Shown here piece after piece: positions 5,343 to 22,378 of a stretch of DNA of 64,000 nucleotides (positions are counted from its first letter, which is position 1; every line of letters starts with the position of its first letter). The notes below the pieces were generated by a model. It was not told the DNA's origin, did no database searches, and saw only the letters and a list, made by a program, of their open reading frames with translations. The translations under genes and the position numbers were made by a program. This DNA comes from an uncultured Treponema sp. GTDB taxonomy: Bacteria; Spirochaetota; Spirochaetia; Treponematales; Treponemataceae. The DNA is taken from the NCBI GenBank assembly GCA_947165895.1, contig CAMVCB010000002.1:288155-352154 (forward strand), written 5' to 3'.

Positions 5343-7322
5343 TTGAAAAAAGTATTATGCCTGCTGCTTCTGCTCACTTTCTGGTATTCGGTATGGGGAC
5401 TTGGCGGAGAAAAATATTACAGCTGGGATTTTTCTGACTGTGATGTAAAGGATGTGCTCTTTGCGGTTTCTATGGATACCGGGGTTCCTATTCTTGCTGA
5501 TGACACAGTGAGCGGAAAATGTGACCTTCGTTTTATCGGTAATGATTTTTCAAAGGCTTTTGATGCTTTTCTGGAAAGCTGCCGCCTTTATGCGGATAAG
5601 AGCGGCGAAGTCTGGAAGGTGAGCCGGGTTCGTGTGACCGTAGAAAATTCTATTTACTCTATTGATGCTTATGACGTAAGTCCTGTTACTCTTCTTGAAA
5701 AGCTTAGCGGAAAGACAGATGCAGTTATTACTTATGATTCCCTTCCATCTTCAAAGATGAGCATACATTTTAAGGGACTTAGTCTTACAGAGCTGATGAA
5801 CAGTCTTGCACGCAGCTTTGGTGCCTATGAATCGGTAAAAAGTGAGAAGGGCTTCCATTTTGTAAGGAAAAATGAAAATCAGCTGAGACATGGCGGAACG
5901 GACGGCTTTGTGCGCATTACGAGAAACGTTTCCGGCGGATTTGACGTGGATGTGCGGGAGGGAACTTTTCTGGAGGTGCTTGACCGTCTTTTTTATATCG
6001 CAGACGAAGGGGAAGGGAGTTTTTGCCTTTTTTCTAACGGGGAAACAAAGCTTTTGAGGACTGTTTTTTCCGGCAGGGATTTTGAAGATACTCTTGAAAA
6101 GCTTTGCAGTCAGAACGGATTTAAATGTGTATTAAGTGACGGAATATATTACTTTGCAGGGGATTCAAATGCAAAAATGGACCTGGTTCACGGTAAGCGT
6201 AACTGGGAGCGTTTTGATTTGAAATATTCAAAGGCAGATACTTTTATTGCCCTCGCAACCCGTCAGCTGGGAAAGTTTGAAAATTTTTGTCTGCCGGATA
6301 AGAGCGGTTTTTATGCCTTTGTAAATACAGAAGAAAAAGCCCTGATAGAAAAACTTGTGGAAGATTCTGATAAGAAGCTTCTGACCCATCTTGTAAACCT
6401 TAAATATTTAAAACCGGATGAGTTTTTAAAGCATCTTCCTCCCGATTTTAACCGGGAAAGTTTTTCTCTTGCGGATGATAATTCCTGCCTTTACTTTACA
6501 GGCAGTCAGAATGCTTATGAAAGTCTCTGCTCTCAGCTGATTTTATGTGACCGCCCGGTTCAGAGAATCAGTTATGATCTTTTGATTCTGCAGTATGACG
6601 AGGGTATGCAGAATTCCTGGACGCCTGTTTTTTCTGCGGAAAAAATGTCTATGGGAGACCGAACCTCAGCATCAGCAATTCTTGGAAACGTAATGAATCT
6701 GAACATGAATGTTGTCGGAGTTTTTGGAATGAATTTTGCCGCCAGTCTTCAGGCTTCAATTGAAGAAAATAAAACAAAGGTTTTTGCAGATACAAGCCTT
6801 CATGGGGTGAACGGAAAGAAAATCAATTTTCAAAGTACAAATACCTACCGCTATCGTGACAACAATCTGGATCCGGAAACAGGCAAGCCTGTTTATTCTG
6901 GTGTTACCAGGGAAATTACTTCAGGAATAAAGCTTGAGGTTCTGGGCTGGGTTAGCGGTGACGGAATGATTACAAGCTCTGTTACGGCAAGTCTTTCACG
7001 ACAGGGAACCGATACTTCTTCTTCAACCGGAAATCCGCCTCCAACAAGTGAAAAAATTGTAACGACTGAAGTCCGCGGAAAGAGCGGTGAACCTGTGGTT
7101 TTGAGCGGACTGGTCCAGAATCAGGAAAGTAAAGAAGAAAAAAGAACGCCTTTTATTTCAAAAATTCCATTAATAGGAAGGCTCTTCAAAAGCAGTGCAA
7201 AAATAAGTGAAAAAAGCCAGATGGTTATTTATCTTGTGCCGCATCTTGAGGGCTATGAAAAGAAAAGCAGGCTTTATGACCGGGAGTGGGCAGCCAGAAA
7301 ACTGCTGGAAATTGAAAGCTGA
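5343..7322 (+). CDS. secretin (GspD/PilQ family outer-membrane channel)
   Basis: Signal peptide. The C-terminal secretin domain ends in GEPVVLSGLVQN...RTPFISKIPLIGRLFKS...MVIYLVPHL. TTG start lies 8 nt after GGAGGA. Confidence 0.9.
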   Translation: MKKVLCLLLLLTFWYSVWGLGGEKYYSWDFSDCDVKDVLFAVSMDTGVPILADDTVSGKCDLRFIGNDFSKAFDAFLESCRLYADKSGEVWKVSRVRVTVENSIYSIDAYDVSPVTLLEKLSGKTDAVITYDSLPSSKMSIHFKGLSLTELMNSLARSFGAYESVKSEKGFHFVRKNENQLRHGGTDGFVRITRNVSGGFDVDVREGTFLEVLDRLFYIADEGEGSFCLFSNGETKLLRTVFSGRDFEDTLEKLCSQNGFKCVLSDGIYYFAGDSNAKMDLVHGKRNWERFDLKYSKADTFIALATRQLGKFENFCLPDKSGFYAFVNTEEKALIEKLVEDSDKKLLTHLVNLKYLKPDEFLKHLPPDFNRESFSLADDNSCLYFTGSQNAYESLCSQLILCDRPVQRISYDLLILQYDEGMQNSWTPVFSAEKMSMGDRTSASAILGNVMNLNMNVVGVFGMNFAASLQASIEENKTKVFADTSLHGVNGKKINFQSTNTYRYRDNNLDPETGKPVYSGVTREITSGIKLEVLGWVSGDGMITSSVTASLSRQGTDTSSSTGNPPPTSEKIVTTEVRGKSGEPVVLSGLVQNQESKEEKRTPFISKIPLIGRLFKSSAKISEKSQMVIYLVPHLEGYEKKSRLYDREWAARKLLEIES

Positions 7323-7343
7323 TAGAGCAAGGGGGCTTAAATT

Positions 7344-8738
7344 ATGAAGGATTTTAAATTCAGACTGACACCTGCCTACTGTCTGTACAATGGTGTCGCA
7401 GTAATCGAACAGAAGGGAACCCAAATCAGGTTTTTGATTGAAAACGACAGGGATTTGATTTTACAGCAGAGGCTTAAAAATGCATTCGATTCTTTTCTGG
7501 AATCGGTAACAAAGCAGAAAGACTGTCCTGAAATTTACAGAAGGCTTCCTCTTGTTGAATTTGAAAGGGGGAGCAGAAAGTCTTTACGGAAAATTGTCTC
7601 TGAGCTTTATCAGGCGGATTCTTTTTCTCCTGCCGGTGAGGCGAAATCTTCTGAAGCGGCTCTTTCTGCAGATAAGGAAGCTGCTGCAGTTCTTCTTCTG
7701 GATAAACTTCTGGAAGACGGACGGACAAAAAAGGCTACTGATATTCATATTGAAAATAATGTTGTCCGATATCGTGTTTTTGGGCGGATTGAGAAGGGGA
7801 TGGAGCTTATTTCTGAGCGTGCAGAAGAGCTTGTCCAGAGAATCAAACTTCTTTCCGGTATGAACGTGCTTGAAAAAAACAGAAGTCAGGACGGACATTT
7901 TATATATGGAAGAAATAATCCGCTTTTTGTAAGGGCCTCTACAATGTGCGTAATTTCCAGCGGTATGCAGACTACAGAATCTCTTGTGCTGAGGCTTTTA
8001 GACAGCAGCCGTATTCCTCTTAATCTTGAAAAGCTGGGCTTTAATTCTTTTCAGCTGGAAAAGCTTGAAAAATTGTGCGGGCTGAAAAACGGTTTAGTTC
8101 TTGTTACAGGAGCAACAGGAAGCGGAAAATCAACAACGGCTGCTTCGATCCTTATGGAAATTGTGAGGTTACGGGGCGGAGGCGTAAAAATAATTTCGCT
8201 GGAGGATCCCCCTGAATATGTGATTCCCGGTGTCTGCCAGATCCGCCTTGATGAAAAAGTAGAGGACAGTTTTGACAATGCCCTGAAGCACCTTTTCAGA
8301 CAGGATCCTGATGTAATTATGATTGGGGAAATAAGGGATGAAAAAACTGCCAGAACGGCTGTACGGGCCGCTCTTACGGGGCACCTTGTTTTTGGAACGG
8401 TACACTCCTCTAGTGCCGGCGCCAGCTTTCTTCGTCTTAAAGATCTGGGGGCTGATGAAAAGGTGCTTGCTTCGGTTCTAAAAGGGGTAATCTGTCAGGA
8501 GCTTGAATATGATGAAAAGCTCAGGGAGGTTTCTCTTCTTGCTGATCTTGCTCTTCCGTCATTTGACTTTTCGATTCTGGCAGATAAGGCCCTGACTGAA
8601 AAAGGACTGGAAGAACTCTTTAATCATTATGAAAACTACGGGGATGCCGTTTTACGTTCTGTTGAAAAACTCAGGAACAGAGTTCTTCCAGTTATCAATC
8701 ATAAAAAATCAGAAAAGAAAGGAGCCGGCTATGTTTGA
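7344..8738 (+). CDS. GspE/PilB-type secretion ATPase
   Basis: Walker A GATGSGKST, Asp box, Walker B DPDVIMIGEIRD and His box GHLVFGTVHS. Has a GspE-like N-terminal domain. No CxxC...CxxC zinc motif was seen. Confidence 0.9.
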   Translation: MKDFKFRLTPAYCLYNGVAVIEQKGTQIRFLIENDRDLILQQRLKNAFDSFLESVTKQKDCPEIYRRLPLVEFERGSRKSLRKIVSELYQADSFSPAGEAKSSEAALSADKEAAAVLLLDKLLEDGRTKKATDIHIENNVVRYRVFGRIEKGMELISERAEELVQRIKLLSGMNVLEKNRSQDGHFIYGRNNPLFVRASTMCVISSGMQTTESLVLRLLDSSRIPLNLEKLGFNSFQLEKLEKLCGLKNGLVLVTGATGSGKSTTAASILMEIVRLRGGGVKIISLEDPPEYVIPGVCQIRLDEKVEDSFDNALKHLFRQDPDVIMIGEIRDEKTARTAVRAALTGHLVFGTVHSSSAGASFLRLKDLGADEKVLASVLKGVICQELEYDEKLREVSLLADLALPSFDFSILADKALTEKGLEELFNHYENYGDAVLRSVEKLRNRVLPVINHKKSEKKGAGYV

Positions 8739-9675
8739 TAAAAATATGCACCGCTTTCTTAAGATTCTGCATCATCTTTATGCGGAACAGGGAATGGGGC
8801 TGACTGATTGCCTTGAGATTATCGGGAAGATGAAGAAGTCAAAGCCTTTGAGTAAGACGGCTTTATATCTGGAAGGAGAATTGAAGAGGGGAAACAGGCT
8901 TTCTAATGCTCTCAGAACCTGCCCTTATGTTAATTTTGACACTTTAACGGTAGCTTTTGTGGATTTTTCACAGAGAACCGGAAATTTGAGTGAAAGTCTT
9001 GGATTTTTGAAGGAAAGATGTGAGAGAAAAGAAAAGGCAGCTTCCAGGGTATTTGAAGCTTCCATCTATCCTGTATTTGTAATTCTTTTAAGTGTTTTTG
9101 TATCTGCCCTGATGATTTTTTACGCGAAGTCTCTTCTGGGAGAAAATTTCGTAAAAACTTCGCTTATCAGGACTCTTTTTTATGATTTATCTTTTCTTTT
9201 TGCTTTTTGCGGACTTATGGTCTGGGTGTTAAAAAGAAATCTTTCTGACAGTCCTTTATATGAAGCCTTTCTTTCCACCGGTTTTTTAATCCGCTATGGA
9301 GTAAATGCCTCTGTGGCTCTTGGACTTGGCGCAAATATTCTTGGACTGGAAACGAAAGCCGGGCAATCTTTTTTGAAGGCGCGTCGGAGGATGGAAGATG
9401 GAATAGAACTTGATAAGGCTTTTTGCGGTGAAAAAAAAGGAATTGGAAATTATAGCAGGGAAATTCAGGAGGCATTTTACTATGCCGGGAAATCAGGAGG
9501 AAAAAATGATGTGTTTGAAAGAATTGCGGGGATTCTTGGAAAGAAGCTTGAAAGAAAAACCGCCTTATTACTTTCGCTGGTAGAACCGGTCTTTGTCGGA
9601 GGAACCGGAATCTTTTTGATTCTACTTATGGCTAACTTTTTGATGCCGGTTATAAATGGACTAAATCTGGTCTAA
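8731..9675 (+). CDS. GspF/PilC-type inner-membrane platform protein
   Basis: ATG 8731 lies 6 nt after GGAG and overlaps the gspE stop. Two T2SSF-like cytoplasmic segments are separated by TM helices. The extension to 8629 in the ORF track sits inside gspE and was ignored. Confidence 0.8.
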   Translation: MFDKNMHRFLKILHHLYAEQGMGLTDCLEIIGKMKKSKPLSKTALYLEGELKRGNRLSNALRTCPYVNFDTLTVAFVDFSQRTGNLSESLGFLKERCERKEKAASRVFEASIYPVFVILLSVFVSALMIFYAKSLLGENFVKTSLIRTLFYDLSFLFAFCGLMVWVLKRNLSDSPLYEAFLSTGFLIRYGVNASVALGLGANILGLETKAGQSFLKARRRMEDGIELDKAFCGEKKGIGNYSREIQEAFYYAGKSGGKNDVFERIAGILGKKLERKTALLLSLVEPVFVGGTGIFLILLMANFLMPVINGLNLV

Positions 9676-9688
9676 GGGAGGAATTTTC

Positions 9689-10192
9689 ATGAAATCAAAA
9701 AAGAAGGAAATAAAAAATGCGAAGAATAAAAAAACAAAGAAAAAACAGCTTGAAGCAGAAGCTTTTACCTTTGTCGAGACGCTTGCAGTCCTTGCAATCG
9801 GGGCAATTATTACGGCAGGCAGCAGTATGTCGGCAACAAGACTTATCAGCCTTGCAAGAAAAACGGCGGCAAAAAATCAAATCAGCCAGTATTCACAGGC
9901 CCTGCAAAGCTACTTTCTTGATTGCGGAAGATTTCCGACGACGGAGCAGGGAATCGATGCGCTTTGGACAAAGCCGGACTTGTATCCAGTTCCTGAAAAC
10001 TGGAAAGGGCCTTATCTCGACCGCAAACCGGGAAAAGACCCCTGGGGTGGAAATTTTGACTATATCAGCGCTGAAAGTTCAGCCTTGCCGTCAGAGGTTT
10101 GTGAGAATCTGCCCTATGTACTTTTATGCTATGGGGCGGACGGGAAAAAAGGCGGCAGCGGCGAAGGAGAAGATATTGTTTCCTGGGAATAA
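9689..10192 (+). CDS. GspG-like major pseudopilin with an atypically long basic leader
   Basis: Prepilin-type N-terminus ...EAEA/FTFVETLAVLAIGAIITAG, with Glu at +5. GspG-like body (DLYPVPENWKGPYL, KDPWGGNFDY). GGGAGG Shine-Dalgarno sequence upstream. Confidence 0.85.
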   Translation: MKSKKKEIKNAKNKKTKKKQLEAEAFTFVETLAVLAIGAIITAGSSMSATRLISLARKTAAKNQISQYSQALQSYFLDCGRFPTTEQGIDALWTKPDLYPVPENWKGPYLDRKPGKDPWGGNFDYISAESSALPSEVCENLPYVLLCYGADGKKGGSGEGEDIVSWE

Positions 10193-10211
10193 ATTTATAA
10201 ATACAGCAGTA

Positions 10212-10385
10212 ATGACAGCTCTTGTTATCTGTTTTGCCCTCTATTTTACGACTGCAAGATCAAAGGCGGCTGGAGAAGTTATGAGATGGCAGAAAGAAGC
10301 TTCTTTTGAAAGATGCAGACTGGAATTGGATAACCAGAATGAACTTTCGGATATTAGTGAAATCAAGATAAGCTGGCTGCCATGA
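10212..10385 (+). CDS. candidate small membrane protein (57 aa)
   Basis: ATG 10212 in the frame of ORF 9717-10385, downstream of the gspG stop. Hydrophobic N-terminus MTALVICFALYFTT. Its stop overlaps the next start (ATGA). No recognisable motif. Confidence 0.3.
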   Translation: MTALVICFALYFTTARSKAAGEVMRWQKEASFERCRLELDNQNELSDISEIKISWLP

Positions 10386-10711
10386 AATTTACAAATGTAA
10401 TCATAAGTTTTTTATTTTATGCATTTTTCTCTATTGAATCTGTTCAGGCTCTTAAGGGCCTTTTCAGGATGGAGCAGAAAAGGGATTTCTTCAAAAATGA
10501 GGCCTTGTGCACGCGTTTTCTTTCTCAGAGTTTTAAAAATACCTGCATGAATTGTGGATTTGAAAATCTTTCTGAATGGAAGAAATGCTGCCGGGTCTTG
10601 TGGAAGCTGGACTACATTGATTTCAGAGAGGGGGAAGAATTTTTGTGCGGAGTGTGGACTTATGATTGCAGACGTTATGAGGTTTATTTTCGAAAAAATA
10701 AAGTGGAGTGA
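10382..10711 (+). CDS. hypothetical protein, hydrophobic pseudopilin-like N-terminus
   Basis: 109-aa ORF, translationally coupled on both sides. The N-terminus MKFTNVIISFLFYAFFSI resembles a leaderless, E5-less pseudopilin helix. No other motif. Confidence 0.5.
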   Translation: MKFTNVIISFLFYAFFSIESVQALKGLFRMEQKRDFFKNEALCTRFLSQSFKNTCMNCGFENLSEWKKCCRVLWKLDYIDFREGEEFLCGVWTYDCRRYEVYFRKNKVE

Positions 10712-10713
10712 AA

Positions 10714-11976
10714 ATGGAATTAAAAAAGAACCTGATCTGGAAAAAAGATTATGAACGCTATTCTGTAAGGCTTCCCTTTCGTGTTTTTTTGAGCCGGAAA
10801 ACAAACCGCAGCCGTTTTATGTTCGGTGAACTTGAGAAAATGCATCCCTGTTTTTCAGACGAGTGCACTTTTGACTCAAAAATAAAAGTCGGAAGAAGAG
10901 GCCTGGTTTCTGATGTTGTTGTGATGAACAGCCTGAAACTTTCTGAATATAAAACGAGATATCTTGGAAAAAAGCTTTTTCTTGAAGGAAATCCGGAAAA
11001 ATGTGTATTCAAAAAGAAAGGAATAAAGACCCCGCTTTCTGCAGCTCTGATTTTATTTGCAGTGCTTGTGACTTTGATTTTTACAGGAAGAAATCAGCTT
11101 CAGACTGTGAAAAATGAAACTTTTGTCAGAGGGGAAAAGGAAGCTGCCGGAGAAGAAAAAATTTCTTCTTTTGAAAGTGATATTCAGACTGGAAAACTTC
11201 CGGGTGAACTAACAGACTGCTTTCTTTCAATTATTGAAGCAGAAAGTGCATTTTTGAGCGGGCTTGAATGGACTTGTGACGGTATGAATGAAAGCTTTTT
11301 TGCTTCCGCTGCTTATATTCATCCTGACCGTTTATTGAAGAATGCTGAAATTGAACTTTCTGCGGTGACTTACAGGAATAACGTGCCTTATTTTACGGCT
11401 AAAGGAAAATGCAGAGTGAGGAAATCGAATATGAATCAAACTGAAATTGTATGGACAAATGGTAAAACCGGGATTTTTGATGCGGATGAAGAAGTTTATG
11501 CAGAGCTTAGAAATATTATCGGGCGTTTCGGGGCAGAATTTCTGGAAGAAAAGTTCAATCCCTGGAAAATCCGTTTTATTTTGAAAAATGCCACACTTAA
11601 TGAAACGGAATCTCTTATTTCTGAAATGGCAGCTTTTATTTTGAAAACCGGAATAGCAATAAGGCGGCTTGTAATAAGAAAGGGCGGCTTTGATGACTTT
11701 GAGCTTGAAATCGAGACAGCGCCTGAGCTCGAACCTTTTATGGGGGTAAATCTGAGCATACTGGAAAAGCGTTTCAGACTTTTCGGACTGAAAAATAAAA
11801 GAGAAAAGGTTCAGTCATATCAGATTGCTGTTGAAAAAAAGACTCCTGCAAAAGAAAAGAGTCTTCCTGTCGGGCAAAGTCTGAAAAAAATAGGGGAGAT
11901 CCGGCATAAGGACGGAAGTTTTGTGGTTTATTTCAAAAATCAGCAGGGAAAAATTATAAGCGAAGTGGGGAACTGA
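10714..11976 (+). CDS. bitopic membrane protein of unknown function (GspL/M-like topology only)
   Basis: ATG 10714 lies 5 nt after GGAG; GTG 10708 is an alternative start. About 110 aa cytoplasmic, one TM helix (LSAALILFAVLVTLIF), about 290 aa extracytoplasmic. Confidence 0.6.
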   Translation: MELKKNLIWKKDYERYSVRLPFRVFLSRKTNRSRFMFGELEKMHPCFSDECTFDSKIKVGRRGLVSDVVVMNSLKLSEYKTRYLGKKLFLEGNPEKCVFKKKGIKTPLSAALILFAVLVTLIFTGRNQLQTVKNETFVRGEKEAAGEEKISSFESDIQTGKLPGELTDCFLSIIEAESAFLSGLEWTCDGMNESFFASAAYIHPDRLLKNAEIELSAVTYRNNVPYFTAKGKCRVRKSNMNQTEIVWTNGKTGIFDADEEVYAELRNIIGRFGAEFLEEKFNPWKIRFILKNATLNETESLISEMAAFILKTGIAIRRLVIRKGGFDDFELEIETAPELEPFMGVNLSILEKRFRLFGLKNKREKVQSYQIAVEKKTPAKEKSLPVGQSLKKIGEIRHKDGSFVVYFKNQQGKIISEVGN

Positions 11977-11977
11977 C

Positions 11978-12583
11978 ATGAAAAAGAATATTTTACCTGC
12001 TCTTTCATTTATTTTATCTTTTCTGTTCTTTTCGTGTGCTTCAAATCCTCGTTTTAAAGGAAGCGGTGATTTTTGCGGCATGGTAGTTGACGAACAAAAT
12101 CAGCCTGTAAATGAGTACCTGATAAACTGCCGGCGGGACGGTGTCATTTTTGGCAGTGCGCTTACAAATCAAAGCGGAATTTTTGTAATTCAGAATCTTC
12201 CTGCCGGTAAATACAGCCTGGATGGTCAAAAGGAAAATTATTCGGATATAAAAAATCTGAAAGTTGACTTTTGCTTTAGGGATAAGTTTTTCTGCTGTTC
12301 TGTTTTTTCACCAGACGGAATGTTTGAGCATCTGAGAAGCCTGATAAAAATAGAAGATTATGATACAGCCCTGAAAGAGCTGGAATTGTTACGGTGCAGA
12401 AAGGATTCCTGTGTTGCAAAAATTTGTCTCTGTTATCAGGCCTGGCTTTATGCCTTAAAGAAGGATAGAAAGATGACTTTTCTATTTTTGAAAAAGATCA
12501 GGAAATCGAAAGATTCTGATTTTGACAAATTCGCAGACAAAATGGAGGTGCTTTTGAATGGAAAGAATGATGAAGAAATGTAG
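11978..12583 (+). CDS. lipoprotein with carboxypeptidase-regulatory-like beta-sandwich domain
   Basis: Lipobox-like LFFSC|AS. GMVVDEQNQPV...NQSGIFVIQNLPAGKYSL matches the CarboxypepD_reg pattern. Helical C-terminus. Confidence 0.65.
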   Translation: MKKNILPALSFILSFLFFSCASNPRFKGSGDFCGMVVDEQNQPVNEYLINCRRDGVIFGSALTNQSGIFVIQNLPAGKYSLDGQKENYSDIKNLKVDFCFRDKFFCCSVFSPDGMFEHLRSLIKIEDYDTALKELELLRCRKDSCVAKICLCYQAWLYALKKDRKMTFLFLKKIRKSKDSDFDKFADKMEVLLNGKNDEEM

Positions 12584-14496: not shown

Positions 14497-14510
14497 AAAA
14501 AAGGTGAAAT

Positions 14511-17500
14511 ATGAAAAAAATAAGGAAAAGTTTTATTTTACTCTGCCTTCTTATGGCAGGTCTTTCAAATATTTATGCTAAAGGTGGTTCCGGCTCTGGA
14601 GGAAGCGGATCTTCAGCTTCCGGCGGAAGTTCGTCCTCTTCTTCCGGCAGTTCATCTTCCGGGGGCAGCTCTTCCTCATCAGGAGGCTCTTCCGGCTCTT
14701 CTTCAAGTTCCTCTTCCTCATCATCAAGCTCTTCCTCTTCGTCAAGTTCTTCCTCCTCTTCTTCTGGCACAGGAAGTTCTTCATCTTCATCAAACGGCGG
14801 CTCGTCATCAGGCTCTAATTCCTCATCGTCTTCCTCAAATTCGACTTCTTCAAATTCTGCCGGCAATTGTCCTTCAACAATCGGTTATTCAGGTTATCCC
14901 GGAAGCGGCAGAAACACTGCAACAGGAGAAGGTTATGCAGCGCATTACAGCCCTCCTTCGAAAGCAGGTGTTACAGGTTCTGCTATGGACGGGCATATTT
15001 CTCCTGAGCAGGAGGCGGAAACTGCAGCTTCCTTATGTCTTGCAAATATTGCAACAATGGAAAATCAAATCAGTGAGATTAATGGAAAAATGGAAAATCT
15101 TAGTCCTGACGATCCTGCTTACGACGCCCTTGCAAATGCGGCTGCAAAACTTTCCGCAGAAGTTGCCGCAATCCGCAGCTGGCAGGAAGAAAGTAAGAAT
15201 GTGGCAGATATGCGAAATGTTCATTTTAAGGATACTGAGGTGGCAGGGGATCCTGTTCATATATTTACAGGAAATTTTCTTGCGGATTATGTTGATTTTA
15301 AGGCAAGAGACGGAATTACAGGCTTTGAAGTGAAGAGAAAGTATTCTGCGGCTCATAGTGCCGAATCCTTTGGCAGCGGCTGGATATGTCCTTTTGATTC
15401 CAGAATCATCAGGGCAAGGCCGGATGATGTTATGGATTGCAGGGATGACATAAATAAGGCTATTGAGCTTTGTGATAAGGGTATGGAATCTGCTTCAAAA
15501 TATATTTCTACTTATGGAGACAGATTCCCTTCTGAGAAAATAAATCAGGCCTTTGAAAGAATGAAAGGCGAAAAAGAAAAATACGAAAAGCTGAAAGAGG
15601 CGATTGAAAAGCAGCTTGCGGAAAATGCGCTTATTGATGAATTGAACAGCTTTGTGACTTATGGGGATTATGGGGATAGAAGTCAGTTTAAGGGAGCCTT
15701 TAATCAGTTTATTTTTGTAAATGAAAAGGGAGATTCAATTCTCTTTCATTATGCCGGAGGCGGATTGTGGATTCCTTACGAAACTGCAGCGGCGCAAAAG
15801 ATGACAGTTTACGGACTAAAAGAAAACGGCAGTCCTTCAGACAGCATTGATTGTCCGGGCGGATATAAAATTCTTTTTGCAAGCGGAGATCAGACCTTTT
15901 ATTCAAAATACGGGCTTATGACAAAGAAAATCTGTCCCAATGGAAATGTTACAATTTTTGATTGCGGCGCAAAAAAAGATGGAAGTATAATCCTTCCAAC
16001 CGGTGAACAGCTTAGGGTAAGCCGAAACAATGATAATTTAATTGAAAGAATTGAAGGCAGTGTTTCTGGTTTTACAGAGTATGTCTATTCAGAAAAAAAA
16101 CTTGTCTCAGTGCTTGATAATGAGGGAATCCGGGTAAACTTTTCCTATGACTCAAAAAATAATCTGAAAGAAATTCATAAGGCTGATGGAAAATCTGTAA
16201 AGCTTATATATGAGTTTAATTCAGCATTTCAAAAGGAAATGTGTGTCTGCGTTACTGATGAAAACGGCAATTCAGAATATTTTTCATATAATCCCGCTGC
16301 TGGTCAGGTTACTCATAGAACTGTTGACGGAGGAAGTGAAGTTTTTCGTTACAATAATAAGGGGGTAACAGTATATAAGCGGGCCGTAGACGGAACAGAA
16401 AGCTATTATTATCCAGATGAAAAAGGATGTATAGAAAGAAAAGTTGAAAACGGTCTTTCAAAAAATTATTCCTATGACAGTTCTTTTCGCATATCCGGTG
16501 TTACTTATGGAAGCGGAGGCTCTGAATCATATTCTTACAGCAGTAATGGTAAGGTATCAAAAATTACAGACAGTGATGGTTTTTCAAACAGCTGGAATTA
16601 TGATTCAAGGGGAAATCTTACGGAAAGCTATTTTAATGAAAAAAGAATTTCTTCCTGCTCTTATTATTCCAACGGACTTTTGAAAAGTCTTGAGGAAAAT
16701 TCAAAAAAAACGGAGTTTTCCTATAATCAGTTTGGTTATATAAGTTCAAAAACTATCCTTGCAGATGGAAAAAGCTTAAGTGAAAGCTGGGAATATGATT
16801 CAAAGTGCCGTGTATCAAAATATAGGGATATTTACGGGGTGGAAACAAAAATTACATATCCCGATTTATTTTCCAGAATCGAAATTTCCGGCAATCAGAA
16901 AAAGACTGAAAGACATTTTAACGAAAGGCTTTTTGAAATAGAAACTATTGAAACTGATTTGAAGAGCGGTATTTCCTATAAAAAAAATGTAGAGTATGAC
17001 GGCCGGGGAAATCCCTTAAAAATCTGGATGAATGGAAAGTTACTTTGTGAATATGAATATATGCCGTCTGGGAAATTGAAGGCCTATAGTGTGCAGGGGG
17101 TTCGAACTGAATACCTTTATGATAATGCCGGCCGGATTCTGGAAGAAAAGCGTAAAATCCAAAATGGTGAAAAAAGCGGTCAAAAAAATATCCTCCCGGG
17201 GGAGTATATTATCTCTTCTGCTTCGTACAGAAAGAGCGGAAATAATCTTGTTGTAAATGTGATTAAAAATGGAAAAGCAATTCAATATATTTACAATAAC
17301 AGGGGCTTTCTCATAAAGGAAAGTTTTCCGGGCGGGGCATATCGAAATTATTCCTATACGGCCTCGGGACGTCTTGAAAGTATAAGTGACAGCTGCATGA
17401 ATCTTTACCGTCGTACATATTTTCGGGATGGAAGCTATTCTGATTCCCAGAAAAATTATCTGCAAAACTCACGGAAGCTGGACTTTTCTCAGAGGGGATT

Positions 17501-20500
17501 ATTAAAGGCTTCAAGAGATTTTATGGGAAATGAAACTTATTATAAATACGATTCCTTCTGCAATCTGCTGGAAGAAAGCTCCCCAGCCTGCCTGAAAAAA
17601 TATACTTATGATAAATACAGTCGTCCATCCGGCTTTTCAATTATTGATTTTGACGGAAGTGTCTGTCTTGAAGAAGAGTACCTGTATAATTATGAGCAGA
17701 AATCTCTGTTTGAAAAATGCGGCGGCAAAAATAAGAGGACTCTTTTTTATGACTGCTGGGAGCGGCCTGTAAAAATAATCAGCGGGGAAGGCGAATTAAG
17801 TCTGGATTACGATGCTCTTGGAAACTGCATAAGGATTTTTGACGGAAAAAGGGAAGCTTTATATGAATACAGTCCTTTCGGTACTCTTGCTTCTAAGGTG
17901 ATAAAGAGCGGGGAAGGGCGGGAACTCTACCGCATGGAAAGGTCATACAATCTTCTGGGAGCTTGTGTAAATGAGAATCAAATGGGAAATTCTGTCTTTT
18001 CCTGTGAATTTGATTCTGCCGGTCGTGTAAAACTTTTTGAAAATAACTTTGGTAACTCCTTTCAATATGATTATGATGATGATGGAAATATTAAGTCTTT
18101 AATTTCCGGCAGTGGTGGTAAAACTTCATTCAGTAAAAATTCATATGAGTTTTCTATTATTAACGGGGAAAAATCAAAATATTCCTATGTCTTTAATCCT
18201 TCTGGCAGTCTTTTGATGGAGGAATCCCCCCTGGGAAAGAAAAAACAGTATGAATATGACAGGAACGGAAGACTTATGTGGCAGACTGGCTTTTCCGGTA
18301 ATAGGCAGCTTGTAAACAGAAACTATTCTGATGGAAGCTGTTCAATAGACTTTTATAATGGAGAAAAGTTTTTTATCAGAAAAAATCCTCTGGGCTTGAT
18401 ACAAAAAATAGATTCTGATTTTTCTTCTGTTGAATATGAATATGACAGAGGGGGAAGACTTTCCTCTTTTCGTGATTTGAAGAATAATATTGAAGTTTTT
18501 TACGCTTATGATGATTATGGACGCTGTATTTCAAAAAAGACAAAAAACAATGAATTTTCATATTTATATAATTCTGAAGGACTTGTAAAAGAAATCAGCG
18601 AAGGTAATTCTTCTTTTTATGTTCAGTTTTTTTATGACGATTTGAAAAGGGAAGTATTAAGGCATTTTTCTAATGGTGTGGAGATTAAAAGCGCTTATAA
18701 TGATAAAGGCTTAAAAAGCTTTTCCGAAAGCAGGGATTCTCTTGGAAATTTGATTTGTGCAGATTATATAATTTATGATGATAAAAACCGTATTCAGTAT
18801 GTCTGTGATAAAAATTGTAATATAAAGCACTTTTCTTATGATAATAAAGGCCGTCTTCTTTCAGCGACATTTCCTTATAGTGAAGAGATTTGCCTGATGG
18901 CAAAAAAAGAAGTTTTGGATTGTGGACTTTATTTAAAATCTGATCATCCGGACGGCAAAAATGTTAATTTTGAAGGTGAGGGAATTGCCAGTATCAACAG
19001 ACTTTTGCAGACCGCGGGAAATTCTGCCAGAGTTCCCCAGATTCAGTATTCATGGATTGAAAAATATGACTACACGGCTACGGGTGCTGTAAAATCAGTG
19101 GAAAATCCCTTTGGAAAAATTAATTATGAGTATGATGCCTTCGGACGTCTTATGAAAAAATACAGTTCAAATTCAAAAGATGAAGGTATGTCCTTTTTCT
19201 GGAATGAGGATAACTGCCTTGAAAAAATCTCAGGGAAAAATACAGAAGTTCTCCTTTCTTATGGGGCAATGTTGAGACCTGTCATAATAATCCAAAGAGA
19301 CAAAATAAGTGGAAATGCCCTGTCTTTTGAATACAGATATGATGCTCTGGGAAGACGTATTTATGAAAAAACTGCTTCAGGTATGGAAACTGCCCTTTTG
19401 TATGACGGCAGTGGAAATAATCTCCTTATGAAAATACCCCTGCGCCAGAATGGAGTAAGTGATTTTTCGGGGCTTTATGCAGCAAATAATATTGCAGAAG
19501 GGGCTTATGATTTTTCCGGCTATTCAGAAGGGGAAGGTGTAAAGACCGGTATATTTGAAAATGCACATTCCGGTGCCCGGGCCGGTTATAATCTGTCTGA
19601 AAAAGTAAAAAATACAGGCCGGATAAATGAAATCGAAAAATCTTTTCAGGAAGATAACAGAGTCTGCCTGTTTCTGAATCTTTGCGACGGCTCGTCTGTT
19701 CGTTTTTATACAGGAAGCGGAGGGCTTTCTGATATTGATTTAGTAACTGCAGATTTCAGGGGAAATGCCACTGCTGTTTTTTCAGGCAGTTCGGAATGTT
19801 CTTCCTTAATGGAATATGATGTCTGGGGAAATACGATAAAATCAGGTGGAAATGAAAAATTCAGCGGGTCAACAGGCAAAAATCGTTCTGCATTTCTTTT
19901 TTACAATCTTTCCAGCCGGGATTATTGCCCGGAACTAAAATGCTTTACATCCATGGATGCCGCAAAAGACGGAGCAAACTGGTTTTCTTTCTGTTCCTGT
20001 GATCCTGTAAACTTTTATGATTCTACAGGTTTTACAAAAAACAGTCTTACAGATAAAGAAGCCTATGATTATGCCTGTGCAATTATCTCTTTAGCATATG
20101 AATTTTCGGTGATGAATTATTATACCGAAGGAAATTCATATTTCATTCCCTCATCCTTTGACTGTGCGGATGTTTCCTATGCAATGGACTGTCTCGCTTC
20201 TATGTATGCAGGGCTTGAAGCCAATTCGGAAAAAGCCGCTGCCTTCAGGTCTGCATTTGCTAAAGGTGATGTAAAGGGTGCTGCCGCCGCTGTCTGTTCA
20301 AGTGATTTTTTCGGCGCTGATTCAAATGCCTTTATAAAGACTTCTGCCGGTTTTGACCGTGACCTTCTTGCAAATTTTAAGACCTATTTTAATGAACACG
20401 GAAATTATAAGGATGTTCCGGCTTATATTTCTGAAATGAGAAATCGTGCAGATGCCATCAGTGCTTTACGAAATCCCAATATTGTTACACCGGGAACAGT

Positions 20501-20795
20501 ACTTGTCTGGGCTAAATCTGATAATCCTGCAGACAGGAATAAAAACTGGGTAGGGCATACTCTGACTGTTGTCGCCAGAACTTTTGATGATAAGGGGTAT
20601 GTAACAGGCTTTGCATATATTGAAGGGCATACAGGTGGTGGCAAGACAAGAATTGGATATATGAATATTACGACTGATTATGCTGTTTGTGATTATGACG
20701 GTAACGTTTATACAATTGATTCCTGGTGCGGAAATTTTCTTGGAACTTATAAAAGAAAGGGCGGGGAATATGTAAAAACGGGCTGCGAAAAATAA
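14511..20795 (+). CDS. Sec-signal RHS/YD-repeat polymorphic toxin with papain-like (NlpC/P60/CHAP-like) C-terminal domain
   Basis: Signal peptide ending IYA|KGG, then a Ser/Gly tract. RHS shell entry GDPVHIFTGNF. More than 20 YD-type repeats (YDSRGNL, YDGRGNP, YDALGNC, YDRNGRL, YDAFGRL and others). Core end motif ...CDPVNFYDSTGF, followed by a 253-aa C-terminal domain. Confidence 0.9.
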   Translation: MKKIRKSFILLCLLMAGLSNIYAKGGSGSGGSGSSASGGSSSSSSGSSSSGGSSSSSGGSSGSSSSSSSSSSSSSSSSSSSSSSSGTGSSSSSSNGGSSSGSNSSSSSSNSTSSNSAGNCPSTIGYSGYPGSGRNTATGEGYAAHYSPPSKAGVTGSAMDGHISPEQEAETAASLCLANIATMENQISEINGKMENLSPDDPAYDALANAAAKLSAEVAAIRSWQEESKNVADMRNVHFKDTEVAGDPVHIFTGNFLADYVDFKARDGITGFEVKRKYSAAHSAESFGSGWICPFDSRIIRARPDDVMDCRDDINKAIELCDKGMESASKYISTYGDRFPSEKINQAFERMKGEKEKYEKLKEAIEKQLAENALIDELNSFVTYGDYGDRSQFKGAFNQFIFVNEKGDSILFHYAGGGLWIPYETAAAQKMTVYGLKENGSPSDSIDCPGGYKILFASGDQTFYSKYGLMTKKICPNGNVTIFDCGAKKDGSIILPTGEQLRVSRNNDNLIERIEGSVSGFTEYVYSEKKLVSVLDNEGIRVNFSYDSKNNLKEIHKADGKSVKLIYEFNSAFQKEMCVCVTDENGNSEYFSYNPAAGQVTHRTVDGGSEVFRYNNKGVTVYKRAVDGTESYYYPDEKGCIERKVENGLSKNYSYDSSFRISGVTYGSGGSESYSYSSNGKVSKITDSDGFSNSWNYDSRGNLTESYFNEKRISSCSYYSNGLLKSLEENSKKTEFSYNQFGYISSKTILADGKSLSESWEYDSKCRVSKYRDIYGVETKITYPDLFSRIEISGNQKKTERHFNERLFEIETIETDLKSGISYKKNVEYDGRGNPLKIWMNGKLLCEYEYMPSGKLKAYSVQGVRTEYLYDNAGRILEEKRKIQNGEKSGQKNILPGEYIISSASYRKSGNNLVVNVIKNGKAIQYIYNNRGFLIKESFPGGAYRNYSYTASGRLESISDSCMNLYRRTYFRDGSYSDSQKNYLQNSRKLDFSQRGLLKASRDFMGNETYYKYDSFCNLLEESSPACLKKYTYDKYSRPSGFSIIDFDGSVCLEEEYLYNYEQKSLFEKCGGKNKRTLFYDCWERPVKIISGEGELSLDYDALGNCIRIFDGKREALYEYSPFGTLASKVIKSGEGRELYRMERSYNLLGACVNENQMGNSVFSCEFDSAGRVKLFENNFGNSFQYDYDDDGNIKSLISGSGGKTSFSKNSYEFSIINGEKSKYSYVFNPSGSLLMEESPLGKKKQYEYDRNGRLMWQTGFSGNRQLVNRNYSDGSCSIDFYNGEKFFIRKNPLGLIQKIDSDFSSVEYEYDRGGRLSSFRDLKNNIEVFYAYDDYGRCISKKTKNNEFSYLYNSEGLVKEISEGNSSFYVQFFYDDLKREVLRHFSNGVEIKSAYNDKGLKSFSESRDSLGNLICADYIIYDDKNRIQYVCDKNCNIKHFSYDNKGRLLSATFPYSEEICLMAKKEVLDCGLYLKSDHPDGKNVNFEGEGIASINRLLQTAGNSARVPQIQYSWIEKYDYTATGAVKSVENPFGKINYEYDAFGRLMKKYSSNSKDEGMSFFWNEDNCLEKISGKNTEVLLSYGAMLRPVIIIQRDKISGNALSFEYRYDALGRRIYEKTASGMETALLYDGSGNNLLMKIPLRQNGVSDFSGLYAANNIAEGAYDFSGYSEGEGVKTGIFENAHSGARAGYNLSEKVKNTGRINEIEKSFQEDNRVCLFLNLCDGSSVRFYTGSGGLSDIDLVTADFRGNATAVFSGSSECSSLMEYDVWGNTIKSGGNEKFSGSTGKNRSAFLFYNLSSRDYCPELKCFTSMDAAKDGANWFSFCSCDPVNFYDSTGFTKNSLTDKEAYDYACAIISLAYEFSVMNYYTEGNSYFIPSSFDCADVSYAMDCLASMYAGLEANSEKAAAFRSAFAKGDVKGAAAAVCSSDFFGADSNAFIKTSAGFDRDLLANFKTYFNEHGNYKDVPAYISEMRNRADAISALRNPNIVTPGTVLVWAKSDNPADRNKNWVGHTLTVVARTFDDKGYVTGFAYIEGHTGGGKTRIGYMNITTDYAVCDYDGNVYTIDSWCGNFLGTYKRKGGEYVKTGCEK
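14583..14858 (+). repeat. Ser/Gly low-complexity tract (~92 codons) inside the RHS gene
   Basis: Almost pure TCN/AGY/GGN codons, including a run of about 25 consecutive Ser. It generates mirror poly-Glu/Asp ORFs on the opposite strand. Confidence 0.9.
20034..20792 (+). other. RHS C-terminal toxin domain, Cys-His papain-like fold
   Basis: Begins right after DPVNFYDSTGF. Candidate nucleophile in SSFDCADVSY (Cys codon 20163-20165). Candidate His in PGTVLVWAK...NWVGHTLTVV (20556-20558), followed by IEGHTGG. Confidence 0.55.
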
Positions 20796-22348: not shown

Positions 22349-22378
22349 TCAGATAAAAACATTGCAGACCTGTGATTA

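What the first reader, a model, noticed from the sequence alone, without database searches (positions are those of the whole stretch)
5343..20795. Minimal pseudopilus/secretin machine translationally coupled to a Sec-signal RHS toxin
Twelve same-strand ORFs are separated by 21 nt or less, or overlap. The junctions are 7322/7344, 8738/8731, 9675/9689, 10192/10212, 10385/10382, 10711/10714, 11976/11978, 12583/12558, 13046/13033 and 14496/14511. This makes a single coupled transcription and translation unit very likely.

The unit opens with a secretin, a GspE-type ATPase, a GspF-type platform and a GspG-like pseudopilin. It continues with three motif-less ORFs and three lipoproteins, one a C11 clostripain-like peptidase. 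It ends with a 2094-aa RHS/YD-repeat toxin that has a classical signal peptide.

Nothing in the window resembles PAAR/VgrG/Hcp (T6SS), a TpsB partner (T5SS) or T7SS parts. In diderms, RHS toxins are known as T6SS cargo. In monoderms, WapA-type RHS proteins rely on Sec alone. A dedicated T2SS-like outer-membrane route for an RHS cage is not an established arrangement.

Working hypothesis: the RHS protein crosses the inner membrane via Sec and is then pushed through the secretin by the pseudopilus. The C11 peptidase or the lipoproteins would act as pilotin or processing factors. Alternative: the first four genes form a competence or T4P-like pseudopilus that merely sits next to the toxin.
Basis: partly seen in the sequence, partly recalled or inferred. 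Interest (0 to 1): 0.85.

Follow-up and report, generated by a model that had tools for sequence, protein, structure and literature searches.

The report
Treponema minimal T2SS operon ending in RHS toxin
Gut and rumen Treponema carry a stripped-down type II secretion machine whose operon usually ends with a large Sec-exported RHS toxin gene, which makes it a natural case for testing whether such toxins leave double-membraned bacteria through a secretin rather than a type VI system.

Summary
Window 5343-20795 holds 12 tightly packed same-strand genes: a secretin, a GspE-like ATPase, a GspF-like platform, a GspG pseudopilin, two small membrane proteins, a bitopic protein that looks GspL/M-like by fold, three lipoproteins (one a C11 peptidase), and a 2094-aa RHS protein with a Sec signal peptide.

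I compared 33 related loci, all from gut or rumen Treponema, including the complete T. bryantii genome. The machine core is present in every locus. The RHS gene follows the C11 gene, mostly 6-36 nt away with a ribosome-binding site, in 22 of 30 informative loci. These include basal lineages. The toxin tips after the conserved RHS core differ between species, and signal-peptide-bearing downstream genes change with them. This is typical polymorphic-toxin behaviour.

Eight complete loci, in at least three separate clades, keep an intact machine with no RHS gene. So the machine is not dedicated to RHS.

The idea has precedent. The Xanthomonas RHS bacteriocin Bcn-A loses activity in an xpsD secretin mutant, and a 2025 preprint links Xanthomonas and Ralstonia Rhs families to gspG.

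Verdict: this is a new variant of an emerging kind. RHS as a cargo encoded in the same operon is plausible (about 0.55) but untested.

The parts
5163..5342 (+). AT-rich intergenic region upstream of the operon, divergent from the FGE-sulfatase gene; presumed promoter region; GGAGGA ribosome-binding site 9 nt before the TTG start
   Evidence: Read directly from the sequence. The consensus promoter scan was not informative.
5343..7322 (+). Secretin, 659 aa: signal peptide, about five N-terminal ring-type alpha/beta domains, C-terminal secretin barrel
   Evidence: PF00263 E=4.5e-26. AF2 model pLDDT 73. Foldseek: InvG 3e-18, PulD 2.6e-16, GspD 2.7e-15, XcpQ N0-N2 6e-6. Present in every locus whose sequence covers this position.
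7344..8738 (+). GspE-like assembly ATPase, 464 aa; Walker A GATGSGKST; no C-terminal tetracysteine motif
   Evidence: PF00437 E=1.8e-65. Best NCBIfam model is GspE TIGR02533, 244 bits, far below its cut-off of 630. Motifs read from the translation.
8731..9675 (+). GspF-like inner-membrane platform, 314 aa; its start overlaps the ATPase stop by 8 nt
   Evidence: PF00482 E=8e-26, two stretches. Relatives are 298-325 aa, which supports the 8731 start.
9689..10192 (+). Major pseudopilin, GspG-like, 167 aa; 25-aa basic leader, then A|FTFVETLAVL with Glu at +5
   Evidence: PF08334 E=1e-25. TIGR01710 89.1 bits against cut-off 88.85. Relatives have G or A at position -1.
10176..10385 (+). Small conserved membrane protein of about 60-80 aa: [FH]-G-N-[KR] motif, then one TM helix and a charged helix; candidate minor pseudopilin or assembly factor
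   Evidence: An ORF of this type lies between gspG and the next gene in nearly all loci. No Pfam or NCBIfam hit.
10382..10711 (+). Small conserved protein, 109 aa. Its N-terminus is M-[RK]-[FLY]-x-[DE] followed by a hydrophobic helix (acidic residue at position 5 in 17 of 29 loci). A Cys-containing globular part follows. Candidate leaderless pilin-like subunit.
   Evidence: tblastn hits in most loci. N-terminal residue statistics. No family hit.
10708..11976 (+). Bitopic inner-membrane protein, 420-422 aa. It has a cytoplasmic alpha/beta domain (aa 8-100), a TM helix (110-132) and two periplasmic ferredoxin-like domains. Candidate functional analogue of GspL/GspM (or PilM/N/O).
   Evidence: AF2 pLDDT 74. 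Foldseek local hits: PilM (prob 1.0, E=0.06) and PulM/EpsM C-domain (prob 0.6-0.75). Family of 481 clusters at 50% identity, with every listed hit about 380-440 aa. No Pfam, NCBIfam or PDB sequence hit.
11978..12583 (+). Lipoprotein, 201 aa, with a CarboxypepD_reg-like beta-sandwich. It is found in nearly every locus that covers this position, including those lacking both C11 and RHS. Candidate pilotin or secretin-associated factor.
   Evidence: PF13620 E=2.4e-6, below the gathering score. Conservation.
12558..13046 (+). Lipoprotein, 162 aa, weak DUF5780 match
   Evidence: PF19092 E=5.7e-5, below the gathering score. Present in most loci and absent in L012 and L024.
13033..14496 (+). C11 clostripain-family cysteine peptidase lipoprotein, 487 aa; His (WGHGTGW) and Cys (FDTCYG) of the catalytic dyad are present
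   Evidence: PF03415 E=2.3e-35. Dyad read from the translation. Retained in six of the eight loci that lack RHS.
14511..20795 (+). RHS/YD polymorphic toxin, 2094 aa. Sec signal peptide at aa 1-24. Ser/Gly-rich tract to about aa 115. DUF6531 at aa 246-302. The YD shell follows.
   Evidence: AAGGTGA ribosome-binding site 5 nt before the ATG, 14 nt after the C11 stop. Conserved position in 22 of 30 informative loci.
19815..20030 (+). RHS-associated core end (aa 1769-1840), ...RDYCPELKCFTSMDAAKDGANWFSFCSCDPVNFYDSTGF, the expected self-cleavage boundary
   Evidence: TIGR03696 39.2 bits against cut-off 32.5. The same motif is found in every complete ortholog except the truncated L022.
20031..20792 (+). 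C-terminal toxin domain 'type A' (253 aa); invariant Cys44, His175 and His199 point to a papain-like or NlpC/P60-like hydrolase; no recognisable immunity gene downstream
   Evidence: Alignment A2. No significant Pfam or PDB sequence match. One outside homologue, P0143 from Treponema sp. C6A8. The next gene is HtrA.
20888..22348 (+). HtrA/DegP periplasmic protease-chaperone, 92 nt downstream on the same strand. Membership of the unit is doubtful: this neighbour is seen only in the closest relative (L001).
   Evidence: TIGR02037 458 bits against cut-off 416. The downstream neighbour differs in other loci.

Best explanation
This is a minimal type II secretion system that is specific to one clade and inherited vertically in gut and rumen Treponema. 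Its parts are:
- a secretin built like GspD/InvG;
- a GspE-like ATPase;
- a GspF-like platform;
- a GspG pseudopilin;
- two small pilin-like membrane proteins;
- a bitopic protein that is GspL/M-like by fold;
- accessory lipoproteins.

The last gene of the operon is a polymorphic RHS toxin with a Sec signal peptide.

Proposed mechanism:
1. The RHS protein crosses the inner membrane through Sec.
2. In the periplasm it folds into a YD shell that encloses its C-terminal toxin. This would shield the producer's own cell wall.
3. The pseudopilus expels it through the secretin, to the cell surface or the medium.
4. It then acts on neighbouring bacteria, where the released C-terminal domain attacks peptidoglycan. 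One tip type is a YkuD domain. Types B and C carry a His...Gly-Cys motif read by eye as the same kind. Others, including the window's, have conserved Cys and His residues that suggest hydrolases.

Signal-peptide-bearing proteins encoded just downstream in most relatives would give periplasmic immunity.

The machine is probably not exclusive to RHS. The C11 lipoprotein and unlinked proteins are likely additional cargo.

Shown: gene content, fold-level identities, conservation of the arrangement, polymorphism of the toxin tips.

Inferred: co-transcription, passage of RHS through the secretin, the target and the enzymatic activity.
For: Machine identity:
- Pfam and NCBIfam hits for the secretin, E, F and G proteins. 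GspG reaches its equivalog cut-off and the ATPase matches GspE best.
- The secretin model aligns over about 520-670 columns with InvG, PulD and GspD, and its N-terminus matches XcpQ/GspD N0-N2.
- The 422-aa protein has local fold matches to PilM and to PulM/EpsM.

Linkage:
- In 33 loci, all Treponema or Spirochaetaceae, the core is universal.
- RHS follows the C11 gene in 22 of 30 informative loci.
- The spacer is mostly 6-36 nt and carries a ribosome-binding site.
- This holds although protein identities fall to 22-30%.
- It also holds although the gene downstream of the cluster changes: HtrA, ParB-like, CobW or an FNT transporter.
- RHS is present in basal lineages (L022, L028, L029, L031) as well as in the crown group.

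Toxin nature:
- All orthologs have signal peptides.
- All complete orthologs except the truncated L022 have a canonical core end.
- At least six tip types were seen, and they swap between close relatives.
- Type E is a YkuD domain, PF03734 E=7e-8.
- Downstream signal-peptide proteins change with the tip type.
- L025 carries an orphan rhs fragment.

Precedent:
- Bcn-A activity is lost in an xpsD mutant (PMC7259588).
- Rhs families linked to gspG have been reported.

No T6SS, T5SS or T7SS part is present in the window.
Against: - Eight complete loci in at least three clades keep an apparently intact machine without RHS. Two of them (L012, L024) also lack DUF5780 and C11. The machine therefore has a function that does not depend on RHS.
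- The upstream flank (metallophosphoesterase, FGE-sulfatase) is also syntenic in many loci. Part of the conservation is simply vertical inheritance of local gene order.
- No prepilin peptidase, GspC or recognisable GspH-K is in the cluster.
- The window's own toxin tip has no identifiable immunity gene and no family assignment.
- The fit of an RHS shell to the secretin channel was not assessed.
- There is no expression or secretion data.
Confidence: 0.55

Rival explanations
1. The cluster is the general-purpose T2SS of this Treponema clade, secreting for example the C11 peptidase, surface lipoproteins or polysaccharide-degrading enzymes. The RHS gene merely occupies a recombination-tolerant slot at the 3' end of the operon. 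It is exported to the periplasm by Sec and leaves the cell by another route (vesicles, lysis or an unknown outer-membrane step), or it stays in the envelope.
For: - The machine is intact without RHS in L012, L016, L017, L021, L024, L026, L030 and L032.
- The upstream flank is also syntenic, so vertical inheritance explains part of the linkage.
- Rhs loci are known recombination hot spots, and orphan fragments occur here.
- Zhang et al. 2012 list no signature neighbour genes for Sec-dependent polymorphic toxins.
Against: - The RHS position is kept across very deep divergence while the downstream boundary is rearranged repeatedly.
- The C11-RHS spacer stays mostly at 6-36 nt with a ribosome-binding site.
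- A hitch-hiker would be expected to move or be lost more often.
- Bcn-A shows that an RHS protein can depend on a T2SS.
Confidence: 0.28
2. The first genes build a type IV pilus-like or competence pseudopilus for DNA uptake or adhesion. It has no role in protein secretion and simply sits next to the toxin.
For: The secretin's best NCBIfam model is PilQ (85.5 bits) and the platform's best is ComGB (59.9 bits). All are far below their cut-offs. No GspC or GspH-K was detected.
Against: - The pseudopilin reaches the GspG equivalog cut-off and matches no pilin model.
- The ATPase scores best with GspE.
- The secretin has N-domains of the GspD/InvG type. Its matches to InvG, PulD and GspD are stronger than those to PilQ.
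- No PilT-type retraction ATPase, ComEA or ComEC was found in the cluster or among the scanned window ORFs.
Confidence: 0.07
3. The RHS protein is not an antibacterial toxin. It would be a surface adhesin or a host-directed factor displayed through the secretin, with the Ser/Gly tract acting as a stalk.
For: The window's RHS and several relatives (L001, L006, L008, L028, L029) have no downstream immunity-like gene. The type A tip has no family assignment. A long Ser/Gly tract follows the signal peptide.
Against: - The tips are polymorphic, and downstream signal-peptide proteins change with them in most relatives.
- One tip is a YkuD domain with a weak Tlde1 match.
- The canonical self-cleavage core end is conserved.
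- An orphan toxin-tip fragment is present in L025.
Confidence: 0.1

Closest known systems
Xanthomonas perforans Bcn-A (RHS-family bacteriocin) with the Xps type II secretion system (Marutani-Hert et al. 2020, PMC7259588)
   Same: Both are large RHS/YD proteins of a diderm. Bcn-A acts outside the producer: its activity is in the supernatant at over 100 kDa and is lost in an xpsD secretin mutant. It has a downstream immunity gene and needs accessory small ORFs.
   Different: - Bcn-A uses the unlinked housekeeping Xps system. Here the whole machine and the toxin share one operon.
- The phylum differs (Spirochaetota).
- The machine here is far more reduced and divergent.
- The accessory genes differ: a C11 peptidase, lipoproteins and the 422-aa protein family.
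- No functional data exist here.
Rhs families linked to gspG in Xanthomonas (XRhs F VIII) and Ralstonia (RRhs F II) (bioRxiv 10.1101/2025.05.08.652813)
   Same: Rhs toxins with a genomic link to a T2SS pseudopilin gene are predicted, by computation, to be T2SS cargo rather than T6SS cargo.
   Different: According to the passages read, the link there is to a gspG gene only. Here the secretin, ATPase, platform, pseudopilin and assembly proteins all precede the toxin in one unit, and the link is traced across a whole clade.
Reduced type II systems such as the chlamydial one, classed as 'generic' type IV filament systems (Denise, Abby and Rocha 2019, PMC6668835)
   Same: Few components are present, with no recognisable minor pseudopilins or GspL/M by sequence. 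A strict T2SS model would probably not detect such systems.
   Different: This cluster carries its own lineage-specific assembly protein family and lipoproteins, plus a toxin cargo gene in the same operon.
WapA of Bacillus and Streptococcus, and the 'T2SS/Sec-dependent' class of polymorphic toxins (Zhang et al. 2012, PMC3482391)
   Same: An N-terminal Sec signal, RHS repeats, and a polymorphic tip with an immunity gene.
   Different: WapA producers have no outer membrane to cross. Zhang et al. use 'T2SS' to mean the general secretory pathway and list no signature neighbour genes.
T6SS Rhs effectors (PAAR-Rhs or VgrG-linked)
   Same: A YD shell, the Rhs core-end motif, and swappable toxin tips. 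The tips include LD-transpeptidase-fold (Tlde1-like) enzymes that target peptidoglycan.
   Different: No PAAR, VgrG, Hcp or other T6SS gene is in the window. A cleavable Sec signal takes the place of a T6SS-loading N-terminal domain.
Klebsiella pul system (pullulanase gene next to its T2SS genes)
   Same: A cargo gene lies beside the machine genes, and lipoprotein cargo is precedented. This rests on my own knowledge and was not tested here.
   Different: The cargo here is a toxin of about 230 kDa. The lipoproteins here have no assigned role.

Membership tests
Type II secretion system (Gsp) | Outer-membrane secretin with N0-N3-type periplasmic domains and a C-terminal secretin domain | tested here: met
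   PF00263 E=4.5e-26. The AF2 model has several N-terminal alpha/beta domains. Foldseek finds PulD, GspD and InvG at 1e-15 to 1e-18 and XcpQ/GspD N0-N2 at about 1e-5. The GspD equivalog TIGR02517 scores only 70.9 bits against a cut-off of 351, so this is not an ortholog-level match.
Type II secretion system (Gsp) | GspE-type assembly ATPase | tested here: inconclusive
   PF00437 E=1.8e-65. The best NCBIfam model is GspE, 244 bits against a cut-off of 630, and PilB and ComGA score close behind. Walker and His boxes are present but the tetracysteine motif is absent (read).
Type II secretion system (Gsp) | GspF polytopic platform protein | tested here: met
   PF00482 E=8e-26, two stretches. Equivalog models are far below their cut-offs, with ComGB slightly ahead of GspF.
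Type II secretion system (Gsp) | Major pseudopilin GspG with a prepilin leader and Glu at +5 | tested here: met
   TIGR01710 89.1 bits against cut-off 88.85. PF08334 E=1e-25. The leader ends in A|FTFVE.
Type II secretion system (Gsp) | Minor pseudopilins GspH, I, J and K | tested here: not met
   No Pfam or NCBIfam hit. Two small conserved proteins with an N-terminal hydrophobic helix (10176-10385 and 10382-10711) are only candidates.
Type II secretion system (Gsp) | Assembly platform proteins GspC, GspL and GspM | tested here: inconclusive
   No sequence hit. The 422-aa protein has a GspL-like topology and weak local fold matches to PilM and to PulM/EpsM. No GspC candidate was found. The HtrA protein matches GspC models only through its PDZ domains.
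Type II secretion system (Gsp) | Prepilin peptidase (GspO/PilD) | tested here: not met
   None in the cluster or among the scanned window ORFs. It may be encoded elsewhere in the genome, which I could not read.
Type II secretion system (Gsp) | Secretes folded periplasmic proteins across the outer membrane | not testable with these tools
   Needs mutants and secretome analysis.
Rhs/YD polymorphic toxin | YD/RHS repeat shell | tested here: met
   PF05593 E=7.8e-45. TIGR01643 E=1.4e-30.
Rhs/YD polymorphic toxin | RHS-associated core end (PxxxxDPxGL-type motif) before the toxin tip | tested here: met
   TIGR03696 at aa 1769-1840, 39.2 bits against cut-off 32.5. The motif here is DPVNFYDSTGF, and it is conserved in every complete ortholog except the truncated L022.
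Rhs/YD polymorphic toxin | C-terminal domains that vary between strains or species | tested here: met
   At least six tip types were seen after the conserved core end, and close relatives carry different types. Type E is YkuD.
Rhs/YD polymorphic toxin | Cognate immunity gene immediately downstream | tested here: not met
   In the window HtrA follows after 92 nt and no immunity-like ORF is present. Downstream proteins of relatives have no homologue anywhere in the window. In relatives with tip types B to E, signal-peptide proteins that change with the tip type are present.
T6SS-delivered Rhs effector | PAAR domain, or an adjacent VgrG, Hcp or chaperone gene | tested here: not met
   The RHS protein has only DUF6531 and RHS repeats. 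There are no T6SS genes in the window.
Type IV pilus / competence pseudopilus | Retraction ATPase PilT, the PilMNOP set, or ComEA/ComEC; PilQ-type secretin | tested here: not met
   None was detected in the cluster. The secretin's fold matches to InvG, PulD and GspD are stronger than those to PilQ.
T2SS-dependent RHS bacteriocin (Bcn-A type) | Extracellular RHS activity lost in a secretin mutant | not testable with these tools
   Shown only for Xanthomonas (PMC7259588).

The most novel reading that the evidence does not exclude
The operon encodes a specialised toxin-export apparatus derived from a T2SS. In this reading:
- the secretin and pseudopilus have adapted to expel or display a whole RHS shell of about 230 kDa;
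- lineage-specific parts (the 422-aa GspL/M-like protein, leaderless pilin-like subunits, and the C11 lipoprotein acting as a processing or release protease) replace the canonical GspC, H-M and O set;
- the displayed RHS delivers cell-wall-degrading tips into neighbouring bacteria.

This would be a T6SS-independent route for interbacterial antagonism in spirochetes.
Probability: 0.3. Interest if true: 0.8.

Novelty: new variant of a known kind. Interest (0 to 1): 0.6.

Why it matters
How Sec-signal RHS toxins cross the outer membrane of diderm bacteria that lack a T6SS is poorly understood. The evidence so far is one Xanthomonas mutant phenotype and a gspG neighbourhood survey.

Here the complete machine and the toxin sit in one conserved operon across a whole clade of abundant gut and rumen symbionts. 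The clade includes the cultured T. bryantii, for which a complete genome is available. That gives a compact, genetically defined unit of about 15.5 kb in which to:
- test T2SS-dependent export of an RHS shell;
- ask what size of cargo a secretin can pass;
- work out how a T2SS functions with so few recognisable parts.

It also points to an unstudied weapon for bacterial competition in rumen Treponema, and to new toxin tip and immunity families.

Tried and rejected
- Outside relatives of the secretin. The word-indexed homologue search filled up with proteins of 52-57% identity from the same clade. It showed nothing about relatives outside the clade or their gene contexts.
- Profile search with the 422-aa protein family against 1.84 billion representatives. 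It returned only full-length members of the same family and no bridge to GspL, PilM or PilN.
- Foldseek with the whole 422-aa model. Only weak local hits came back, none at E<=0.001, so the GspL/M assignment remains an inference.
- Type A toxin tip. Pfam at E<=1, a PDB profile search and a homologue search (one hit) did not assign a fold. The NlpC/P60-like reading rests on invariant Cys, His and His residues. I had too few admissible sequences to build a useful AF2 alignment for it.
- Promoter and terminator scan. Counts equalled shuffled expectation, so it was uninformative.
- Immunity gene for the window's toxin. tblastn with downstream proteins of relatives found nothing in the window.
- Literature searches for a Treponema or spirochete T2SS linked to Rhs found nothing.
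- Rejected idea: HtrA as part of the system. It neighbours the cluster only in the window and its closest relative.
- Rejected idea: the ORF 9717-10385 as a 222-aa protein. Only its last roughly 69 codons are conserved.

Full report
**Observation**

The 12 same-strand ORFs and all quoted junctions exist as described.
- secretin (PF00263, E=4.5e-26);
- T2SSE ATPase (E=1.8e-65);
- T2SSF platform (E=8e-26);
- T2SSG pseudopilin (E=1e-25);
- a CarboxypepD_reg-like lipoprotein;
- a weak DUF5780 lipoprotein;
- a C11 peptidase (E=2.3e-35);
- a 2094-aa protein with RHS repeats (E=7.8e-45) and DUF6531.

NCBIfam places the pseudopilin just above the GspG equivalog cut-off (89.1 against 88.85 bits). The ATPase scores best with GspE, but far below that model's cut-off. 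The RHS protein has the RHS-associated core domain at aa 1769-1840 (39.2 bits against a cut-off of 32.5).

Read by eye, the RHS protein also has a classical Sec signal peptide, followed by a Ser/Gly tract of about 90 aa. A ribosome-binding site (AAGGTGA) lies 14 nt after the C11 stop.

The flanks are ordinary chromosome:
- upstream: a GGDEF protein, a metallophosphoesterase and an FGE-sulfatase-like gene;
- downstream: HtrA and PurL.

Pfam scans of the other large ORFs of the window gave only housekeeping genes, or no hit at all. They showed no T6SS, T5SS or T7SS part and no prepilin peptidase. The consensus promoter and terminator scan did not differ from shuffled sequence.

**The three 'motif-less' ORFs**

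All three are conserved.

The 422-aa protein belongs to a family with 481 clusters at 50% identity. All listed members are full-length, about 380-440 aa. An AlphaFold model (pLDDT 74) shows:
- a cytoplasmic alpha/beta domain;
- one TM helix;
- two periplasmic ferredoxin-like domains.

Foldseek gives only weak local hits. These are to PilM (prob 1.0, E=0.06) and to the PulM/EpsM periplasmic domain (prob 0.6-0.75). This is the topology expected of GspL/GspM-type assembly proteins, but the assignment is an inference.

The two small ORFs each begin with a conserved short motif followed by a hydrophobic helix:
- [FH]-G-N-[KR]... for the first;
- M-[RK]-[FLY]-x-[DE]... for the second.

They are candidates for minor pseudopilin-like subunits. 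The first most likely starts at 10176, not 10212.

**The secretin**

An AlphaFold model built on 53 sequences (pLDDT 73) has about five N-terminal alpha/beta domains and then the barrel. Its Foldseek matches are:
- InvG (3e-18), PulD (2.6e-16) and GspD (2.7e-15), over about 520-670 aligned columns;
- the XcpQ/GspD N0-N2 crystal structures, at about 1e-5;
- PilQ, more weakly.

Together with the GspG equivalog, this makes a T2SS-type machine much more likely than a type IV pilus or competence pseudopilus.

**Comparative genomics**

A profile of the 422-aa protein found 29 species-level loci among GTDB representative genomes. All are gut or rumen Treponema or Spirochaetaceae, including Treponema sp. 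JC4, T. zioleckii, T. ruminis and Ca. T. caballi. Metagenome contigs and the complete T. bryantii genome add more.

The window's own species is not among the representatives. The best match there is 62% identity.

Across 33 loci:
- The core is present in every locus that covers it. The core is the secretin, E, F, G, the two small ORFs, the 422-aa protein and, in nearly all of them, the CarboxypepD_reg lipoprotein.
- DUF5780 and C11 are missing only in L012 and L024.
- An RHS gene follows C11 in 22 of 30 informative loci.
- The C11-RHS spacer is mostly 6-36 nt and carries a ribosome-binding site.

A neighbour-joining tree of the ATPase plus secretin places RHS-bearing loci both basally and in the crown. 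The eight RHS-less loci fall in at least three separate clades. The link is therefore old, with several losses.

The gene downstream of the cluster changes between lineages: HtrA, a ParB-like gene, CobW or an FNT transporter. RHS nevertheless stays attached to the operon. This argues for more than inherited gene order. However, the upstream flank is also syntenic in many loci.

**The RHS protein as a polymorphic toxin**

All orthologs carry signal peptides. Every complete ortholog except the truncated L022 ends its shell with the canonical ...RDYxPxxxRFxSxDPxxDGxNW.YC..DPVNFxDxxGL motif. At least six unrelated C-terminal domains follow the motif, and close relatives carry different ones.
- Type E is a YkuD LD-transpeptidase-fold domain (PF03734, E=7e-8), with a weak Tlde1 match.
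- Types B and C share the His...Gly-Cys signature by eye.
- Types D and F, and the window's type A, have conserved Cys and His residues. In type A these are invariant C44, H175 and H199. They suggest papain-like hydrolases, but no family or PDB match was obtained.

In most relatives, downstream genes encode signal-peptide proteins that change with the tip type. Those of types B, C and E share an F5/8-type-C domain, PF25302. L025 has an orphan rhs fragment.

Periplasmic immunity paired with enzymes of cell-wall-acting type is what one expects of antibacterial toxins that act in the periplasm.

The window's own locus, like L001, L006 and L008, has no immunity-like gene. This is unexplained. Spirochete peptidoglycan chemistry, or immunity encoded elsewhere in the genome, are possibilities.

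**Mechanism**

The best-supported reading has four steps:
1. Sec exports the RHS protein to the periplasm.
2. The protein folds into a shell that encloses its toxin tip.
3. The minimal T2SS expels it.
4. It acts on neighbouring bacteria.

Only the parts list and the evolutionary linkage are shown. Export through the secretin is inferred.

The eight loci with an intact machine but no RHS show that the machine is not dedicated to RHS. The C11 lipoprotein or unlinked proteins are likely further cargo. A pilotin or processing role for the lipoproteins remains speculative.

**Comparison with what is known**
- Zhang et al. 2012 label all signal-peptide polymorphic toxins 'T2SS/Sec-dependent'. By this they mean the general secretory pathway, and they list no signature neighbour genes.
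- Marutani-Hert et al. 2020 showed that the 1398-aa RHS bacteriocin Bcn-A of X. perforans is active in supernatants and loses activity in an xpsD secretin mutant.
- A 2025 preprint links large Xanthomonas and Ralstonia Rhs families to gspG and predicts T2SS export.
- Reduced T2SSs that lack recognisable minor pseudopilins and GspL/M are known from Chlamydiae.
- I found no report of a T2SS-RHS operon in Treponema or any other spirochete.

**Verdict**

The finding is real and non-trivial, but it is a new variant of an emerging kind, not a new category. What is new:
- the complete machine and the toxin share one conserved operon;
- the setting is the spirochete lineage;
- the machine carries lineage-specific parts.

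Interest 0.6. Probability that RHS is a true cargo of this machine: about 0.55.

Noticed in passing
window 20031-20792 (RHS aa 1841-2094): The window's toxin tip ('type A') has invariant Cys, His and His residues but matches no Pfam family or PDB sequence. Only one homologue was found in 5.8 billion proteins (P0143, Treponema sp. C6A8). No immunity-like gene follows it here or in L001, L006 and L008.
   Followed up: partly
L003, L004, L010, L014, L018, L020: gene immediately after RHS: The signal-peptide proteins downstream of tip types B, C and E share a C-terminal F5/8-type-C domain (PF25302, 'NADase_transloc'). This is an unusual domain for a presumed immunity protein.
   Followed up: partly
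L034 15419-16666 (T. bryantii AP025286.1): In the complete T. bryantii genome the 422-aa assembly protein is called as two genes (211 and 182 aa). This is either a true split into cytoplasmic/TM and periplasmic halves, or a frameshift.
   Followed up: no
window 7344-8738: The GspE-like ATPase has Walker A, Asp, Walker B and His boxes but lacks the C-terminal tetracysteine (zinc) motif usual in GspE and PilB. The Pfam match stops at profile position 277 of 370.
   Followed up: no
window 50000-60000: A low-GC stretch (about 30-35% against about 40% elsewhere) holds a polysaccharide-synthesis cluster: several GT2 and GT1 glycosyltransferases, a Wzx-like flippase and a hexapeptide acyltransferase. 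A DUF4143/AAA_14 ATPase gene precedes it. It looks like a horizontally acquired surface-glycan island.
   Followed up: partly
window 41078-42742: The longest ORF containing the FliG homologue is 554 aa (TTG start), with about 230 residues ahead of the FliG_N domain. It overlaps the end of the ribosomal protein S9 gene. The true start may be further downstream.
   Followed up: no
window 20888-31332: In many relatives a convergent CobW-family GTPase gene lies directly after the cluster. In the window CobW (30103-31332, minus strand) is about 9 kb away. HtrA, PurL, an unknown 332-aa ORF and two tandem CNNM/CorC paralogues lie between. This indicates a rearrangement or insertion at the downstream boundary.
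   Followed up: partly
L025 16286-16873: A fragment of an RHS shell end (TEN_YD-shell, E=2.9e-5) lies after the immunity-like gene. This is an orphan rhs toxin-tip cassette, evidence of toxin swapping at this locus.
   Followed up: partly
L022 13861-18330 (T. zioleckii): The RHS gene is only 1489 aa, lacks the core-end motif and sits 192 nt after C11. It is probably a decaying copy.
   Followed up: no
window 31544-34110 (minus strand) and 46167-47339: ORFs of 199, 654 and 390 aa have no Pfam match at E<=1e-5.
   Followed up: no
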